Origin: Escherichia phage saus132
Length of the DNA stretch: 64,000 nucleotides
Sequence record: NC_047884.1
Reading direction: 5' to 3' (one strand)
Under the pieces are notes generated by a model, which saw only the letters and a list, made by a program, of their open reading frames with translations, did not search any database and was not told where the DNA came from. Position 1 is the stretch's first letter. Each line of letters starts with the position of its first letter. Positions 155 to 32,159 of this stretch are shown in pieces. Position numbers and translations under genes: made by a program.

Positions 155-488
155 AAAATCTTTAAGTTTACTAAGGCTATTAGCTCGGTGTGCGTATTAC
201 CCTCAGACATTATCCAGTAGAGGATAACCGCTCTTCACAAACCCGATACACTATTCAGTTGCCGCTGAATCTAGTGGACTAATCTAGAACTTCTCCCGAG
301 TCGTAGGGATCGTGCTTTTTGGCAGCCAGTCCTAGGTCGAGCTAATACCTTAGTGAACTAAATTGATGGATATCAGACTAATTTTGCTACGGCGTTTATC
401 CTGAGGATCTCTTTTTCGGTAGCTCTGCTAGTGTAGACGTCATACACCTGATATCTAGGCAGCTATTTTCACATCAATTTATATAAAT

Positions 489-2410: not shown

Positions 2411-2608
2411 ATAATAAGTCAATCTAGGCAGGACTTGAACCTGCTATCACTTGTGCGGATTTACGAGAACCATTCTTTCACTCGAATCGAACGAGCTTCT
2501 ACCCTCGGCAAGCTGGTGTCCCCTCTCCACCACGCTAGAATGTTTGATAAAGAGTCCGGTGTAGCAATCCGTAAGGGTGCACCTACTGTAGCCTTTACTC
2601 TTTAAATT

Positions 2609-3737: not shown

Positions 3738-4010
3738 TTAATCTACTTCACACATATCATCATAGCCACAAGTTGGGCATTCCCAATGACATTCGTCATG
3801 CTCACCGCATTGAGCACATTCATAAATCTTTGGCTTTTCAACTTCTTCTAGATTAATAAATTCTAGATCATCGAAGTTACCAATGGATCTGGCATAGTAA
3901 CCATCGCCTGCGTCATAACCTGATTTACCACACTCACACATCTTAAACTCACGCAGATGTGTGAAGATATGTTCAGAGCCACAACACTTAAATTTAACTA
4001 ACTTTTTCAT
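3738..4010 (-). CDS. Cys-rich zinc-ribbon protein (90 aa)
   Basis: Several CxxC pairs (CCGSEH, CECG, CAQCG, CPTCG); early promoter immediately upstream. Confidence 0.5.
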   Translation of the reverse strand: MKKLVKFKCCGSEHIFTHLREFKMCECGKSGYDAGDGYYARSIGNFDDLEFINLEEVEKPKIYECAQCGEHDECHWECPTCGYDDMCEVD

Positions 4011-10780: not shown

Positions 10781-10806
10781 TTTATTTTCCTAGCAGTTAA
10801 TAAAAT

Positions 10807-10881
10807 TGGCCGAGGTGACAGGATTCGAACCTGCATAAAGGAATTTAGAAGACTCCTGCCTATCCCTTAGACTACACCCCG
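10807..10881 (-). tRNA. tRNA-Arg (UCU)
   Basis: Acceptor CGGGGTG/CACCTCG, anticodon arm GGAGT-CTTCTAA-ATTCC, T arm GCAGG-TTCGAAT-CCTGT, CCA encoded. Confidence 0.7.
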
Positions 10882-11740
10882 TTTAGGTATTTTTAAGAAC
10901 TCTTATAAAAGCTCTTAAAGATACCCGACGGTAGGTAGGGTCAGCCCCCTCAGATTAAGCTCTGCAGCCCTTCCGTCAGACAATATCTTCCAGTTTAAGT
11001 CAGGGTGACTTTGTGGTTATGTTCTCCGTATGTGAAGAACTCGGTTAGGCTTAGGTCATGACTCCCAGCCTACTGCTGCCGCTCAACAGGAATTATCGCG
11101 AATTACCTGTACTATTGGGCACCATTAGTGACATCTCTCATGTCAGCGTTTCCCACTCTCATATTCACGCGGTCTGTTAGAATCGCACCTCCGATTTTCG
11201 ATGCGAAGCTGGATGCCTAGTCTCAGGTTAAACGGGGCACACACTAGGCAGTGATCCCGAGTTCCGAGTTTGGTTGAGGCCGTCAGGTTTCCTCGTGGTT
11301 TAGCTGTTTCGATTCTAACCTAATACTGATCAGGTGGCGTACCTCCTGAACTGTCATAGTATGTACTCCAGCAGCGAATGCTTATCCGGTATAAGCCCGA
11401 GTTATCTGATTCTTTCCGACCGCAGGATTCGAACCTGCATCTTCCACCAGTTACGGTTTGATATTACCGTTTATACTAGGACGGCAGTGTTATCACATAA
11501 GTCAGTTCGACACCCCACTAACATAAACTAGAGAAGAGTTTACGAGATTTCGGGACAGCTCCCGAGTTTTCCGCAGATTTTCAGTTCCCTATCAATAGCA
11601 ATAAGCGTTAGCTCGTAGCCTCTCTCAGAGTACTTACTAGTCTCCAACTCACCGACTCTATTCAGTGGAATAGCTATCCTAGTAGGAATCACTAAACTCA
11701 CTCAGCGTAATCGGCTCGCTGTTCTCTAATTTATGAATCT

Positions 11741-11769
11741 ATTATACAGAATTTTGAGGCGTTTAGCAA
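11741..11769 (-). promoter_or_regulatory. early promoter facing an 860-nt ORF-free region and tRNA-Arg
   Basis: Minus strand -35 TTGCTA, 17 bp, -10 TATAAT. Confidence 0.6.
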
Positions 11770-11777
11770 ATCAATTT

Positions 11778-12221
11778 TTAATTAAATTCGCCAGCAACCT
11801 GAGCAGCAATGCCACCGTCGTAACGACCAGGAAACTCTTCCTTAATCGCTTTCATCAGCATACCTTTTGTAATCCCAGGGTTCAACTTAACTAATTCTGC
11901 AAAGTATTTGCGAATCTCAGAATCAGATAACTGAGGCGGCAGATACTGTTGTAGCCATTTGTTCAGTATATACTCATACTGAGCAGACTGCAAGCTATAA
12001 TTATCAAGGTCTTGACCGTGAAGTTTAGCTTTCGTCTGATTAATGCTTTTCAGTTGAGCTTTTAGATAAGATACAAACTGTTCAGAAGTAATGAAGTCTT
12101 TATCAACACGCTGAAGATCTCCGATTATGGTCTGGTAGCTTTTAGCTACTTCTTTATCAGAACCATCAACCTTAGATTCCTGCAAAGCCCTACGCAAAAC
12201 ATCTAGAATATTCTCTTCCAT
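11778..12221 (-). CDS. hypothetical protein (147 aa)
   Basis: ORF; no recognisable motif. Confidence 0.5.
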   Translation of the reverse strand: MEENILDVLRRALQESKVDGSDKEVAKSYQTIIGDLQRVDKDFITSEQFVSYLKAQLKSINQTKAKLHGQDLDNYSLQSAQYEYILNKWLQQYLPPQLSDSEIRKYFAELVKLNPGITKGMLMKAIKEEFPGRYDGGIAAQVAGEFN

Positions 12222-13232: not shown

Positions 13233-13262
13233 AATAGCCTCGTCTCATCAATTTAAAAATAT

Positions 13263-13291
13263 ATTATACAGAAAACTAAACTAATTAGCAA
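13263..13291 (-). promoter_or_regulatory. early promoter cassette
   Basis: Minus strand -35 TTGCTA, 17 bp, -10 TATAAT. Confidence 0.6.
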
Positions 13292-13675
13292 ATACATTTT
13301 TAAATTGAGAGACTAGTAAACCGATAAACAGCCTAGAGGCGCCACAGGCCATATCTTATGAGCCATGTACCTTTGATCTAGGGTTTGAATCATCAACGAA
13401 TACTTTGCATCTTTTAGCTTTAGAAGGTTAGAAGTTTGAGTGCTTTTAACTTTTCAGCTTTCATACTTGAGCGTTGATCTTTGAAGTTGTGTTGGTACTA
13501 CCAACGACCTTTTGTTTTTACGTGTCAGATTAAATGTCTGATGTAATAAACATAATCTCCAATAGATTATACTTTATAGTATGGTCAGCGGTCTTATTTA
13601 ACCTCGTATTTCAACCGCTGCTGCGAGGTAAGATGCTTGGGCTTTCGTCTACCGATTTACTAGTCTTTTAAATTA

Positions 13676-31543: not shown

Positions 31544-31634
31544 TTTTCATTAGTCCAATCCTGATTACCGAGTCATTTTGGCTCGGTTTTCTCTGTGCTC
31601 AAAGACACTGATAGCACCTTCGGAAAAATTTTAC

Positions 31635-31663
31635 TTGCAGGATGCTCAAAATCTTGATATAAT
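31635..31663 (+). promoter_or_regulatory. promoter with conserved UTR-like sequence but no ORF for about 500 nt
   Basis: -35 TTGCAG, 17 bp, -10 TATAAT. Confidence 0.55.
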
Positions 31664-32159
31664 ATTTATATTGAATTGAGAGACATTAGTAAAAATTGAT
31701 TTTGCTAATTTTTCTTGTTTACAATCCGCAATACGGAACAGTTAGGCTGCCCCATTAAGGGTTGTTTTAACTATTACTAGTGTTTATACTGCATTAGTTA
31801 ATTATCAATTAAGTGATCTGCGTACCCTGAATTCGGAAAGGTAAATCCAAACCGTGCATATTTAGCTCGTTATATAGGCAGAGCTTTATATGGGGGTGCG
31901 AACGAAAAGAGCAGCGAATGGTGACACGTCCAGTAGCCACCTACCAATAGGATAGTGAGGGCAATCAGAATCGGCTTAGCGGCCAATGACCTAGGTTCTG
32001 ATCTGGATAAGAGTTAAGAGAGCGCAGCACTGAGGTATGATAACTTATTCATACTGCTTGATGATGATTAATGTTTGTGTAAATGGTAGTAATAGTTGTT
32101 CTATTCTTTTGAATAGTCCTAAAGAAAGATATCCGAATAACCAACATAGGAGTATTGTT

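What the first reader, a model, noticed from the sequence alone, without database searches (positions are those of the whole stretch)
10882..11740. 860-bp ORF-free, GC-elevated region transcribed from a strong early promoter, with a tRNA-like remnant
Seen in sequence: promoter 11741-11769 points into about 860 bp with no ORF over 65 codons on either strand and visibly higher GC than neighbours, ending at tRNA-Arg. It contains a perfect T arm (GCAGG-TTCGAAT-CCTGC, plus coordinates about 11420-11440) and a D-stem-like element but no acceptable anticodon arm or CCA, and the motif CCCGAGTT occurs three times. Inference: one or more structured non-coding RNAs, decayed tRNA genes, or a long processed leader.
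Basis: partly seen in the sequence, partly recalled or inferred. Interest (0 to 1): 0.5.

Follow-up and report, generated by a model that had tools for sequence, protein, structure and literature searches.

The report
RNAX, a large structured phage RNA
This protein-free 860-base stretch of a T5-like phage is the gene for "RNAX", a large, intricately folded non-coding RNA with a built-in tRNA look-alike; relatives already carry the annotation, but its function is unknown.

Summary
The window is an Epseptimavirus (a T5-like phage). The interval is orthologous to "rnaX: stable RNA with unknown functions", annotated in BF23 and DT571/2, and to the "pseudo-tRNA" interval of T5.

It is not a decaying tRNA gene or junk spacer. 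Comparison across Markadamsvirinae, Klebsiella T5-likes and Pectobacterium DU_PP_V shows a mosaic, multi-domain RNA with many compensatory base-pair changes:
- a 5' stem (P1) carrying a variable insert;
- a four-way-junction domain in which a non-decoding tRNA-like cloverleaf sits on a 12-bp leader–trailer helix (P2), closed by a long-range helix (Pc);
- a second closed domain displaying an invariant palindromic loop, AGUCAUGA;
- a 3' module ending in a nearly invariant 18-bp hairpin that abuts tRNA-Arg.

No Rfam family matches except a borderline tRNA hit. I found no homologue in E. coli genomes or outside T5-like phages. The viable T5 st0 mutant lacks the region.

My best reading is an early, co-transcribed, RNase-P-released stable RNA that acts as a tRNA-mimicking scaffold or decoy. 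Its closest analogues in genomic context are the GOLLD and ROOL RNAs. No tool here tested function.

The parts
11741..11769 (-). Sigma-70 promoter of the PN25-like early type (TTGCTA-17-TATAAT). It corresponds to 'promoter P16-17' of BF23.
   Evidence: consensus scan; BF23 annotation. Early timing is inferred from similarity to T5 early promoters, not measured.
11523..11734 (-). 5' domain. Stem P1 pairs 11722-11734 with 11523-11535 and encloses a ~190-nt lineage-variable insert. In T5 and DT571/2 the same stem is a simple hairpin with a 6-nt loop.
   Evidence: independent folds of WIN, 26175I, BF23, T5 and DT571/2 give the same closing stem. One compensatory G-C to A-U change in DU_PP_V was read from the sequence.
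11295..11520 (-). Domain I, a four-way junction. It is closed by the long-range helix Pc: UAGUGG (11515-11520) pairs with the CCAC of UAAACCAC (11295-11302).
   Evidence: Compensatory variants are UAUGG/CCAUG (bobsandoy), UACGG/CCGUA (DU_PP_V and L044) and UGUGG/CCACA (Eos).
11505..11514 (-). Conserved joiner GGUGUCGAAC. It contains GUCGAA, which equals the first six positions (GNCGAA) of the Ro60-associated YrlA motif GNCGAAN0-1G.
   Evidence: near-invariant; Tequintavirus has GUGGAA instead. The motif definition comes from PMC4201824.
11397..11505 (-). P2, a 12-bp leader-trailer helix (11492-11505 with 11397-11410) that carries the tRNA-like domain. It keeps conserved C.C and G.G mismatches.
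   Evidence: Exchanges seen: AU<->CG, CG<->GC, UA<->CG (three pairs), GC<->AU (8:7) and AU<->GC.
11414..11486 (-). Non-decoding tRNA-like structure (TLS). Acceptor stem of 7-8 bp with a conserved U.U; D arm; T arm at 11422-11438; a short hairpin ACCG[UAAC]UGGU in place of the anticodon arm; no encoded CCA.
   Evidence: On the alignment, 12 pairs changed on both sides against 5.3+-1.2 in shuffles (0/500), and slid controls gave at most 4.
11380..11396 (-). P3 hairpin, GCUUAU[ACCGG]AUAAGC.
   Evidence: Covarying forms are GCUUUU/AAAAGC, GCUUC/GAAGC and GGUUC/GAACC.
11303..11375 (-). P4, the expanded 'alpha' form (GCUG...CAGC). T5, ende, S124 and Eos instead have a short 'beta' hairpin, GGCAG[UUGCGCA]CUGCC.
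   Evidence: beta-form covariation GGCAG/CUGCC <-> GACAG/CUGUC. The internal fold of the alpha form was not resolved.
11168..11294 (-). Domain II, made of optional or variable modules: a GAGG[..]CCUC hairpin at 11276-11294, the repeated AACUCGG, the conserved hairpin P5 (UUCGCAUC..GGUGCGAUU, 11181-11207) and AGACCGCG (11168-11175).
   Evidence: P5 shows a G-C to A-U compensatory change in Klebsiella phages. Eos has the minimal version.
11013..11157 (-). Domain III, closed by AGUGG (in 11149-11157) pairing with CCAC (in 11013-11020). It contains hairpins IIIa (11129-11145), IIIb (11086-11110, apical UCGCGA) and IIIc (11021-11040).
   Evidence: 98% of cells are paired; 11 pairs changed on both sides against 3.6+-1.4 in shuffles (0/500); slid controls gave at most 2.
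11047..11071 (-). Hairpin presenting the invariant 8-nt loop AGUCAUGA, whose core UCAUGA is a palindrome. The 12-mer GGAGUCAUGACC is identical in every lineage, while the supporting stems are unrelated in sequence.
   Evidence: same architecture in 6 of 7 lineages folded independently; helix 4 covaries.
10882..11009 (-). 3' module. H1 is GUCACCCUGAC (10999-11009). H2 is a branched hairpin (10927-10977) with a lineage-specific closing helix and a conserved CUUAAU. H3 is a 17-19-bp AU-rich hairpin (10885-10926), followed by UAAA and then tRNA-Arg.
   Evidence: z = -3.1 to -5.1 in six lineages. Changes in H3 are A-U<->G.U swaps that keep pairing only on this strand.
10807..10881 (-). tRNA-Arg(UCU), co-transcribed. 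Its 5' end defines the RNAX 3' boundary, presumably through RNase P cleavage.
   Evidence: No terminator-like site on this strand until 9600-9570. RNase P cleavage is inferred.

Best explanation
The interval is the rnaX gene of a T5-like phage. It encodes a genuine, selected, multi-domain structured non-coding RNA of about 850 nt here and 0.63-1.6 kb in relatives.

Proposed steps, with their status:
1. Transcription from the strong PN25-type promoter as the 5' part of an RNAX - tRNA-Arg - orf66 - SPFH transcript. The promoter consensus and the absence of a terminator are shown; early timing is inferred.
2. RNase P cleavage at the 5' end of tRNA-Arg releases RNAX. Its ends are then protected by the P1 stem (5') and the 18-bp H3 hairpin (3'), which would explain the 'stable RNA' label. 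This step is inferred.
3. The RNA folds into closed domains. Domain I holds a tRNA-shaped module (acceptor stem, D/T elbow, no decoding loop, no CCA) on a rigid 12-bp helix in a four-way junction. Domain III presents an invariant self-complementary loop. The folds are shown by covariation.
4. It acts in trans as an accessory tRNA-mimicking scaffold or decoy for a tRNA-recognising host or phage factor, possibly as a dimer or oligomer. This is inferred and is the least certain step.

RNAX is dispensable under laboratory conditions.
For: - Orthology to the annotated RNAX. Synteny (YqeY-like gene - promoter - RNAX - tRNA-Arg - SPFH) holds in T5 and BF23.
- No ORF and elevated GC.
- No protein family for the small ORFs.
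- Single-nucleotide indels between lineages inside the conserved core are incompatible with a conserved reading frame.
- Structure statistics: TLS core, 12 double-change pairs against 5.3 in shuffles, 0/500. P2 has 7 covarying pairs. Pc has three independent compensatory variants. Domain III has 11 double-change pairs against 3.6, 0/500. H3 changes are G.U-compatible on the sense strand only. The 3' module folds alike in six lineages, z = -3.1 to -5.1.
- The tRNA-like arm varies freely: an 85-nt version in Roth39, a GCGAA-capped stem in phiR2-01, a CUAG loop in DU_PP_V. So it does not decode.
- All 18 real tRNA genes found in the window carry a CCA end in the ARAGORN gene span (checked for the seven printed); the TLS has none.
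- Inserted ORFs in relatives always lie outside the unit, directly after H3 or at the 5' side. Two of the six tested are homing endonucleases, and the other four have no Pfam match.
- The viable T5 st0 mutant lacks the locus.
Against: - No expression or processing data were accessible. The 'stable RNA' label is only a GenBank note, and I found no paper on RNAX.
- The sequences come from one phage family and are related. The covariation controls are not probabilities, and parts of the model (Pc, H2, P1) rest on a few independent changes read by eye.
- In the SLAM_phiST45 / L017 lineage the cloverleaf is replaced by a different 48-nt hairpin between identical flanks. The tRNA shape is therefore not indispensable.
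- The middle modules are highly mosaic.
- P2 pairing of leader and trailer might hinder RNase P at the TLS.
- Function is untested, and the region can be deleted.
Confidence: 0.7

Rival explanations
1. Self-assembling 'ornate' RNA in the manner of ROOL or GOLLD. RNAX would form homo-dimers or oligomers through its invariant palindromic loop (AGUCAUGA) and a second CG-palindromic apical loop, building an RNA-only particle associated with the phage tRNA island.
For: - Same genomic niche as GOLLD and ROOL: phage-encoded, beside a tRNA island, 0.6-1.6 kb, an embedded tRNA-like element, conserved regions joined by variable ones, non-essential (PMC12286853).
- The loop is invariant on covarying stems in all lineages.
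- The IIIb apex stays palindromic while its sequence changes: UCGCGA, CGCGCG, CUCGAG, GUGCGCAC, UCCGCGGA (read by eye).
Against: - No Rfam GOLLD or ROOL match, even with lax filters.
- Short palindromes are common by chance, and S124 and Eos keep only CGCG.
- Homology of the IIIb hairpins in distant lineages is assumed, not shown.
- Oligomerisation was not testable here.
Confidence: 0.2
2. Y-RNA-like tether or decoy for host Ro60/Rsr, or the linked Rtc RNA-repair pathway. A Ro-binding motif followed by a stem topped with a tRNA-like domain would resemble D. radiodurans Yrn1.
For: - The conserved joiner GGUGUCGAA contains GNCGAA, and it lies immediately 5' of a stem that carries a tRNA-like domain whose 'anticodon' loop is 6 nt. 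Chen et al. describe the same features for Yrn1.
- Salmonella, the main host genus, encodes Rsr and YrlA (PMC4201824).
Against: - No Y_RNA or YrlA hit at E<=10 on a 261-nt query.
- YrlA is circularly permuted (T - acceptor hairpin - D); RNAX is not.
- Tequintaviruses have GUGGAA, and the trailing G of the motif is absent.
- No Ro60 gene was noticed nearby.
- E. coli K-12, a T5 host, lacks rsr (my own knowledge, not tested).
- A 5-base motif has about a 3% chance of occurring in such a leader.
Confidence: 0.07
3. Mainly a processing cassette or long leader. The tRNA-like element and the long hairpins would serve only as RNase P, RNase III or RNase E signals controlling maturation and dosage of tRNA-Arg and the downstream SPFH mRNA, with no trans-acting role.
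For: - Co-transcription with no intervening terminator.
- H3 abuts the 5' end of tRNA-Arg.
- P2 plus the acceptor stem resembles the leader-trailer processing stems of rRNA operons (the analogy is my own knowledge).
Against: - RNAX is conserved as a unit even where homing-endonuclease or other ORFs separate it from tRNA-Arg. In Klebsiella phages different genes follow it.
- 0.6-1.6 kb with two closed multi-helix domains and invariant loops is far more than a processing signal needs.
Confidence: 0.12
4. Neutral debris: decayed tRNA genes and spacer left over from the tRNA island (the 'remnant' reading).
For: - T5 and several RefSeq records call the element a pseudo-tRNA or tRNA-OTHER.
- The locus lies in the deletable tRNA region.
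- The mosaic structure suggests frequent recombination.
Against: - Compensatory substitutions occur in every stem of the cloverleaf and in at least eight other helices.
- Motifs are invariant across subfamilies whose neighbouring sequence is unalignable.
- No second tRNA-like hit exists anywhere in the interval.
Confidence: 0.03
5. A DNA-level element, such as a replication or recombination site, an operator array, or homing-endonuclease targets, made of palindromes and inverted repeats rather than an RNA.
For: - Palindromes GTCATGAC and TCGCGA, long inverted repeats, and endonuclease genes inserted at the borders.
Against: - Many stems keep pairing only through G.U on the transcribed strand, which would be A.C on the other strand.
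- Long-range helices P2 and Pc covary over 100-220 nt.
- A strong promoter points into the region.
Confidence: 0.03

Closest known systems
rnaX ('RNAX, stable RNA with unknown functions') of phage BF23 (AJ604530) and DT571/2 (KM979355); the 'pseudo-tRNA' interval of T5 (AY587007 40701-41537)
   Same: Orthologous. The position is the same: promoter P16-17, then RNAX, then tRNA-Arg(UCU), then the SPFH gene. Identity is 72-83% over the shared modules (domain I, domain III and the 3' module).
   Different: The window's copy has a ~190-nt insert in P1, the expanded alpha form of P4, and extra domain II modules. T5 has a duplicated H1 module. The public records give only an extent and a note. I could not find any published structure or function.
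GOLLD and ROOL large ornate RNAs of phages and prophages
   Same: Phage-encoded, beside tRNA islands, several hundred to more than 800 nt, elaborate covarying structure. A tRNA is sometimes embedded in a GOLLD linker. Conserved regions are joined by variable ones; the RNAs are non-essential; function is unknown (PMC12286853).
   Different: There is no sequence or structure homology, since the Rfam models do not match. The host range differs (enterobacterial virulent phages). Here the tRNA-like part cannot decode. Oligomerisation is only hypothesised.
Bacterial Y RNAs (D. radiodurans Yrn1; YrlA of Salmonella, mycobacteria and mycobacteriophages)
   Same: A non-coding RNA containing a tRNA-mimicking domain with D/T elbow features. 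A short GNCGAA-type motif lies near the 5' side. The Yrn1 'anticodon' loop is 6 nt.
   Different: YrlA is permuted and about 100 nt long, and it lies next to a Ro60 gene. RNAX is not permuted and is 6-15 times larger. No Ro60 gene was noticed nearby, and there is no Rfam match.
mascRNA/MALAT1 and other tRNA-like elements embedded in long transcripts
   Same: A cloverleaf without decoding capacity sits inside a long non-coding transcript, where the tRNA-processing machinery could define the ends (my own knowledge; one search lists such papers).
   Different: Those cases are eukaryotic. In them the tRNA-like element lies at the 3' end and is released. Here it sits on a base-paired leader-trailer helix inside a four-way junction.
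Small stable RNAs of phage tRNA regions (T5 RNAI, RNAIII, RNAIV, RNA1, RNA2H, rna2; T4 species 1 and 2)
   Same: Non-coding, encoded in the tRNA cluster, co-transcribed with tRNAs, and of unknown function. Three of them have homologues in this window.
   Different: They are 100-170 nt long. I detected no sequence similarity between them and RNAX.

Membership tests
RNAX of T5-like phages (GenBank misc_RNA rnaX) | Sequence homology to the annotated BF23 and DT571/2 rnaX | tested here: met
   72-83% identity over q5-421 and q644-994. Hits H72 and H87 lie under the rnaX features.
RNAX of T5-like phages (GenBank misc_RNA rnaX) | Synteny: early promoter upstream, tRNA-Arg(UCU) immediately downstream, SPFH/band-7 gene next | tested here: met
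RNAX of T5-like phages (GenBank misc_RNA rnaX) | Accumulates as a stable RNA in infected cells | not testable with these tools
   Only the GenBank note is available. No paper was found.
tRNA (Rfam RF00005) | Cloverleaf with acceptor, D and T arms and elbow nucleotides (GG in the D loop, UUCRA in the T loop) | tested here: met
   29.3 bits against a gathering score of 29.
tRNA (Rfam RF00005) | 5-bp anticodon stem with a 7-nt loop (U33, purine 37) presenting an anticodon | tested here: not met
   The arm is a 3-5-bp stem with a 4-6-nt loop (UAAC, UAAA, CUAG, GCGAA), or an extended arm in Roth39. Where the loop is 7 nt (26175I), position 37 is C.
tRNA (Rfam RF00005) | Encoded 3'-CCA, as in the other tRNA genes of this phage, and free 5'/3' flanks | tested here: not met
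   the element ends ..GGUCGGAAAGAA; the flanks form a 12-bp helix.
tRNA (Rfam RF00005) | Detected by a standard tRNA finder | tested here: not met
   (ARAGORN at default finds nothing). It is found only at relaxed settings, with inconsistent identities: Ser(act), SeC(tca), Leu(tag) or undetermined.
Y RNA / YrlA | Match to the Rfam covariance models | tested here: not met
   no hit at E<=10.
Y RNA / YrlA | GNCGAAN0-1G motif near the 5' end | tested here: inconclusive
   GUCGAA or GCCGAA is present in most lineages, but the trailing G is missing and Tequintaviruses have GUGGAA.
Y RNA / YrlA | Permuted order T arm - closed acceptor hairpin - D arm (YrlA) | tested here: not met
   RNAX has the normal tRNA order.
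Y RNA / YrlA | Encoded next to a Ro60 (TROVE) gene and bound by Ro60 | not tested
   The flanking genes are a YqeY-like gene, DUF7616, a cell-wall hydrolase and an SPFH gene. The rest of the window was not scanned.
GOLLD / ROOL | Match to the Rfam covariance models | tested here: not met
GOLLD / ROOL | Large structured RNA in a phage beside a tRNA island | tested here: met
   context as described.
GOLLD / ROOL | Homo-oligomeric nanocage | not testable with these tools
   The only hints are the invariant palindromic loop and the palindromic IIIb apex.
tmRNA | tRNA-like domain formed by the 5' and 3' ends, plus a tag ORF | tested here: not met
   (ARAGORN tmRNA search).

The most novel reading that the evidence does not exclude
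RNAX is the founding member of a previously undescribed class of large 'ornate' phage RNAs, confined to T5-like phages. In it, a non-decoding tRNA mimic is displayed on a rigid helix within a four-way junction, and a second domain carries an invariant self-complementary loop. The RNA would work as an RNA-only or RNP machine that dimerises or oligomerises and captures a tRNA-recognising factor, for example a tRNA-targeting defence nuclease, Ro60/Rtc, RNase P or the CCA-adding enzyme. It would then be an enterobacterial counterpart of ROOL and GOLLD in a genetically tractable model phage.
Probability: 0.3. Interest if true: 0.8.

Novelty: new member of a known kind. Interest (0 to 1): 0.55.

Why it matters
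T5 is a classical model phage, and its tRNA region has recently been shown to hold anti-defence tRNAs (against PARIS and retron Eco7). RNAX occupies up to 1.5% of the genome and is driven by one of the strongest promoter types known. It is conserved in more than 500 sequenced phages of Salmonella, E. coli, Klebsiella, Yersinia and Pectobacterium, yet it has no known function and no Rfam family.

The structural model here gives concrete, mutable targets: P2, Pc, the tRNA mimic, the AGUCAUGA loop and H3. Viable deletion mutants (st0) already exist, so the function of a large phage RNA that sits beside a tRNA island, as ROOL and GOLLD do, becomes directly testable in E. coli and Salmonella.

Tried and rejected
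- Rfam, whole window at gathering scores and three lax sub-scans. Only the borderline tRNA hit appeared: no tmRNA, RNase P, Y RNA/YrlA, GOLLD, ROOL, group I/II intron or riboswitch.
- ARAGORN tmRNA search: nothing.
- Small ORFs inside the interval (53, 33 and 65 aa): no Pfam family. The antisense 65-codon ORF overlaps the conserved core, but lineages differ there by single-nucleotide indels, so coding was rejected.
- ORFs that relatives carry 'inside' the interval are insertions at the borders, not coding versions of RNAX. Two are homing endonucleases (T5orf172/MUG113 and HNH_3); the others have no Pfam match.
- IMG/VR scans by protein and by TLS pattern and a metagenome scan with the H3 motif returned only T5-like phages, or true tRNA-Arg/Glu genes. 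No new lineage was found.
- The genome-contig scan used too loose a pattern (14 fixed bases). It returned 120 scattered chance hits and was wasted.
- E. coli genomes (5,426): no match, so there is no host homologue.
- Literature searches for RNAX or T5 stable RNAs in the held library: nothing on RNAX.
- Closest tRNA parent of the TLS: none stands out, at 48-49 of 74 identities to six different tRNAs.
- Y-RNA membership was considered and rejected on topology and on the covariance model.
Full report
**Identity of the window.** The 1.2 kb around the finding is 100% identical to 'Bacteriophage T5-like chee130_1' and to Salmonella phage SB6, and 99-100% identical to many Epseptimavirus genomes. 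The window is therefore a T5-like phage (Demerecviridae, Markadamsvirinae). The finding lies at the edge of its tRNA island: 18 tRNA genes were found by ARAGORN, all on the minus strand.

**Check of the observation.**
- A TTGCTA-17-TATAAT promoter lies at 11769-11741 on the minus strand.
- No ORF exceeds 65 codons between it and tRNA-Arg(UCU) at 10807-10881.
- 10781-11777 is the longest stretch of the 64-kb window without a six-frame ORF of at least 66 aa.
- GC is 0.461 against a window mean of 0.399, in the top 1.3% of equal-sized windows.
- The perfect T arm is at 11422-11438, inside a 73-nt cloverleaf at 11414-11486. ARAGORN ignores it at default settings, and Rfam's tRNA model scores it at 29.3 bits against a gathering score of 29. 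The anticodon arm is skipped in that alignment.
- CCCGAGTT occurs three times in the window, all inside the interval.
- The whole 854-nt RNA folds 3 standard deviations better than its shuffles, on only 20 shuffles.

**The locus is already annotated.** A distant BLAST of the interval finds 525 phage records: Salmonella 268, Escherichia 130, Klebsiella 81, plus Pectobacterium, Yersinia, Shigella and Citrobacter.
- In the BF23 tRNA-region record the homologous stretch is 'misc_RNA rnaX, RNAX, stable RNA with unknown functions'. It runs from 'promoter P16-17' to the first base of tRNA-Arg.
- DT571/2 carries the same annotation at 636 nt.
- T5 records show an ORF-free interval there with a 'pseudo' tRNA.
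- Other annotators call the internal element tRNA-OTHER, tRNA-Sec, tRNA-Ser or tRNA-Pseudo, or place short hypothetical ORFs over it.
- I found no paper on RNAX in the searchable library.
- The genome of the viable T5 st0 deletion mutant lacks the whole locus (one search compared). RNAX is therefore dispensable in the laboratory.

**Mosaic conservation.** BLAST of the RNA-sense sequence against 15 lineages shows conserved blocks separated by unrelated or absent segments.
- Universal blocks are the tRNA-like core (about 11540-11370), a 45-nt block (11210-11166), the stretch around GGAGUCAUGACC, and the last ~130 nt before tRNA-Arg.
- RNAX length ranges from about 630 nt (DT571/2) to about 1.6 kb of ORF-poor sequence in phiR2-01.
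- Where relatives have extra ORFs, they sit outside the unit: directly after the last hairpin and before tRNA-Arg (S124, 26175I, ende, bobsandoy, phiR2-01, Eos, Klebsiella phages), or at the 5' side (vaffelhjerte).
- Of the six inserted ORFs tested against Pfam, two are homing endonucleases: T5orf172/MUG113 in phiR2-01 and HNH_3 in vaffelhjerte. The other four have no Pfam match.
Relatives do not encode proteins across the interval; ORFs have been inserted at its borders.

**The tRNA-like element is selected but does not decode.** It is present from Epseptimavirus to Pectobacterium DU_PP_V, which belongs to a different subfamily.
- T stem: GCAGG/CCUGC exchanges with GUAGG/CCUAC and GUGGG/CCCAC.
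- D stem: GUAU/AUAU exchanges with GCUU/GAGC (phiR2-01).
- Acceptor stem: CCGUCC/GGUCGG exchanges with CUGAC/GUCAG, and it keeps a conserved U.U.
- 'Anticodon' hairpin: ACCG[UAAC]UGGU, GGCG[UAAC]UGCC, AGGCG[UAAA]UGCCU, CCGG[GCGAA]CCGG, GUACC[CUAG]GGUAC, and an extended two-tier arm in Roth39.
- On a 15-sequence alignment, 87% of cells pair. Twelve pairs changed on both sides against 5.3+-1.2 in shuffles (0 of 500 reached the observed value). Slid controls gave at most 4.
- The loop is rarely 7 nt, there is no encoded CCA although the phage's real tRNA genes have one, and no particular tRNA is its closest relative.
- In the SLAM_phiST45 / L017 / L018 lineage the cloverleaf is replaced by an unrelated 48-nt hairpin between identical flanks.

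**Domain I.** RNAalifold on the same alignment revealed that the 5' leader and 3' trailer of the cloverleaf form a 12-bp helix, P2 (window 11492-11505 with 11397-11410).
- Seven of its pairs covary: AU/CG, CG/GC, three UA/CG, GC/AU at 8:7, and AU/GC. Two mismatches (C.C and G.G) are conserved.
- P2 is followed directly by hairpin P3 (GCUUAU/AUAAGC, covarying), the conserved string UCGC, and a hairpin P4 of variable size. P4 is ~70 nt here and a 17-nt GGCAG..CUGCC hairpin in T5, ende, S124 and Eos.
- Next comes the conserved (U/A)AAACCAC.
- That CCAC pairs with the conserved UAGUGG upstream of P2. bobsandoy has UAUGG/CCAUG, DU_PP_V has UACGG/CCGUA and Eos has UGUGG/CCACA.
- Domain I (11520-11295) is therefore a closed four-way junction (Pc, P2 with the tRNA mimic, P3, P4) with conserved joiners.
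- One joiner, GGUGUCGAA, contains the GNCGAA core of the motif that Chen et al. associate with Ro60 binding in bacterial Y RNAs.

**Domain 0 and domain II.**
- The first 13 transcribed nucleotides pair with 11523-11535 to form P1. In T5 and DT571/2 this is a plain hairpin. Here and in BF23 a ~150-190-nt variable insert sits in its loop.
- Between domains I and III lie optional modules and a conserved hairpin P5, UUCGCAUC..GGUGCGAUU. In Klebsiella phages P5 changes G-C to A-U on both strands.

**Domain III (11157-11013).** It is closed by AGUGG/CCAC again.
- Hairpins IIIa (UGACAU/AUGUCA, also UGGCAU/AUGCCA, UCACAU/AUGUGA, UCACG/CGUGA) and IIIc covary strongly.
- 98% of cells pair. Eleven pairs changed on both sides against 3.6+-1.4 in shuffles (0/500). 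Slid controls gave at most 2.
- Its most striking feature is a hairpin (11047-11071) whose 8-nt loop AGUCAUGA, with closing GG/CC, is identical in every lineage examined. The supporting stems are unrelated in sequence: AGGCU/AGCCU, GUGAC/GUCAC, UACUAAAC/GUUUAGUA and CCUAGAC/GUCUAGG.
- The 12-mer occurs once in the window.
- The loop core UCAUGA is self-complementary.
- The apex of hairpin IIIb is also palindromic, and it stays so while changing: UCGCGA, CGCGCG, CUCGAG, GUGCGCAC, UCCGCGGA. I read this by eye and its significance is modest.

**The 3' module (11009-10882).**
- H1 is GUCACCYUGAC.
- H2 has a closing helix that differs by lineage: GACGG/CCGUC, CAGUAG/CUACUG, GACAG/CUGUC and AGACG/CGUCU. 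A covarying hairpin lies immediately 5' of the conserved CUUAAU.
- H3 is a 17-19-bp AU-rich hairpin that is ~95% identical even in DU_PP_V.
- The few changes in H3 are A-U/G.U swaps that keep pairing only on the transcribed strand. One internal position is C.A, U-A or C-G.
- Six lineages fold independently into the same H1-H2-H3 layout, with z from -3.1 to -5.1.
- H3 is followed by UAAA and tRNA-Arg. The next terminator-like site on this strand is at 9600-9570, after the SPFH gene.

**What it is not.**
- No Rfam family matches at gathering scores over the window, or at E<=10 with lax filters over three sub-regions, apart from the borderline tRNA hit.
- No tmRNA was found.
- The small ORFs match no Pfam family. 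The conserved core differs between lineages by single-nucleotide indels.
- There is no homologue in 5,426 complete E. coli genomes.
- Pattern scans of IMG/VR and of metagenomes recovered only T5-like phages.

**How it most likely works.**
- Shown: a strong promoter, no terminator before tRNA-Arg, and a conserved multi-domain fold with a tRNA-shaped module and invariant loops.
- Inferred: the primary transcript is RNAX-tRNA-Arg-orf66-SPFH, and RNase P cutting at tRNA-Arg frees RNAX. P1 and H3 cap its ends against exonucleases, which would account for its being called a stable RNA.
- Inferred: the tRNA mimic keeps exactly the features read by enzymes that recognise tRNA shape (acceptor helix and D/T elbow) and discards those needed for decoding. 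I therefore favour a trans-acting scaffold or decoy for a tRNA-recognising factor.
- That fits a region whose real tRNAs are now known to neutralise tRNA-cleaving defences, and it fits dispensability in defence-poor laboratory strains.
- The invariant self-complementary loop suggests dimerisation or a fixed partner.
- Rivals are given with their weights: a ROOL/GOLLD-like self-assembly, a Y-RNA-like Ro60 tether, a mere processing cassette, neutral debris, and a DNA-level element.

**Comparison with what is known.**
- By homology and synteny this is a member of the annotated but uncharacterised RNAX family.
- By architecture and genomic niche its nearest analogues are GOLLD and ROOL: phage-borne, next to tRNA islands, sometimes with an embedded tRNA, non-essential, function unknown. 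It fails their covariance models.
- It shares tRNA mimicry and a GNCGAA-type motif with bacterial Y RNAs. It fails their models and the YrlA topology.

**Verdict.**
- The finding is real and the 'structured ncRNA' reading is right. The 'remnant' reading is wrong.
- The locus is already in public annotation, so existence is not new.
- What appears new is the domain model and the evidence that a 0.6-1.6-kb ornate RNA with a non-decoding tRNA mimic is conserved across T5-like phages.
- Interest is moderate to fairly high because the system is immediately testable.

Noticed in passing
window 235-347, 2109-2209, 2418-2542 (minus strand): Homologues of three other T5 'stable RNAs' annotated in AY692264: RNA2H (96% over 113 nt), RNAIV (94%) and rna2 (90%). 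They lie between tRNA genes of this window. Like RNAX they have no known function.
   Followed up: partly
window 11778-12221 (minus strand): The gene just upstream of the RNAX promoter gives a sub-threshold Pfam YqeY hit (25.4 bits against a cutoff of 27). RefSeq names it 'tRNA amidotransferase / YqeY domain protein'. A GatB/YqeY-type tRNA-binding domain next to a tRNA mimic could be a partner. In Klebsiella phages it is not adjacent.
   Followed up: no
L070 1743-2303; L013 215-697; L006 1205-1714; L069 1921-2247; L007 1712-2217: ORFs are inserted exactly at the RNAX borders in relatives. Two are homing endonucleases: T5orf172/MUG113 in phiR2-01, where it is unannotated in the record, and HNH_3 in vaffelhjerte. 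The others have no Pfam match. The RNAX/tRNA-Arg junction looks like an insertion hotspot for extra genes, including a homing endonuclease.
   Followed up: partly
L004 ~838-885; L017 ~3918-3965; L018: In the SLAM_phiST45 lineage the tRNA-like cloverleaf is replaced by an unrelated 48-nt element (CCAGA-UGCUCA[..]UGAGC..-UCUGG) between identical flanks. This is a natural 'swap' mutant of the tRNA mimic.
   Followed up: partly
L010 735-821 (Klebsiella phage Roth39): Here the tRNA-like element has a long two-tier arm (CUGCA..GGGGA[GCUA]UCCCC..UGCGG) in place of the short 'anticodon' hairpin, giving 85 nt in all.
   Followed up: no
L005 655-728; L008 833-906 (26175I, ende, vaffelhjerte lineage): In this lineage the mimic has a 7-nt loop CUUCACC, and tRNA finders call it tRNA-SeC(UCA), an opal-suppressor-like anticodon. 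Position 37 is C and there is no CCA, so function as a suppressor seems unlikely. I did not test it.
   Followed up: no
L016 (T5, AY587007 ~40.75 kb) and L193: T5 and one metagenomic relative carry a ~100-nt tandem duplication of the H1 module AGUCACCUUGAC(U/A)UAAACUGGAA within the 3' part of RNAX.
   Followed up: no
AY587007 ~37865 (L016), also BF23 and several Tequintavirus loci: A second copy of the UAGUGGGGU...ACCACUUA motif lies elsewhere in Tequintavirus genomes, just upstream of another early promoter. It is absent from this window.
   Followed up: no
AACUCGG occurs four times: once as the 3' strand of P2, twice in tandem in domain II (CAAACUCGGAACUCGGG), and once in the P1 insert. It might offer alternative pairing partners for the P2 5' strand. 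The domain II copy does not covary with P2 in other lineages.
   Followed up: partly
window 31544-32036 and 13233-13675: These are the other long stretches outside the tRNA island without any six-frame ORF of at least 66 aa: 493 nt and 443 nt. The second borders a GC-rich patch at about 13.7-14.1 kb.
   Followed up: no
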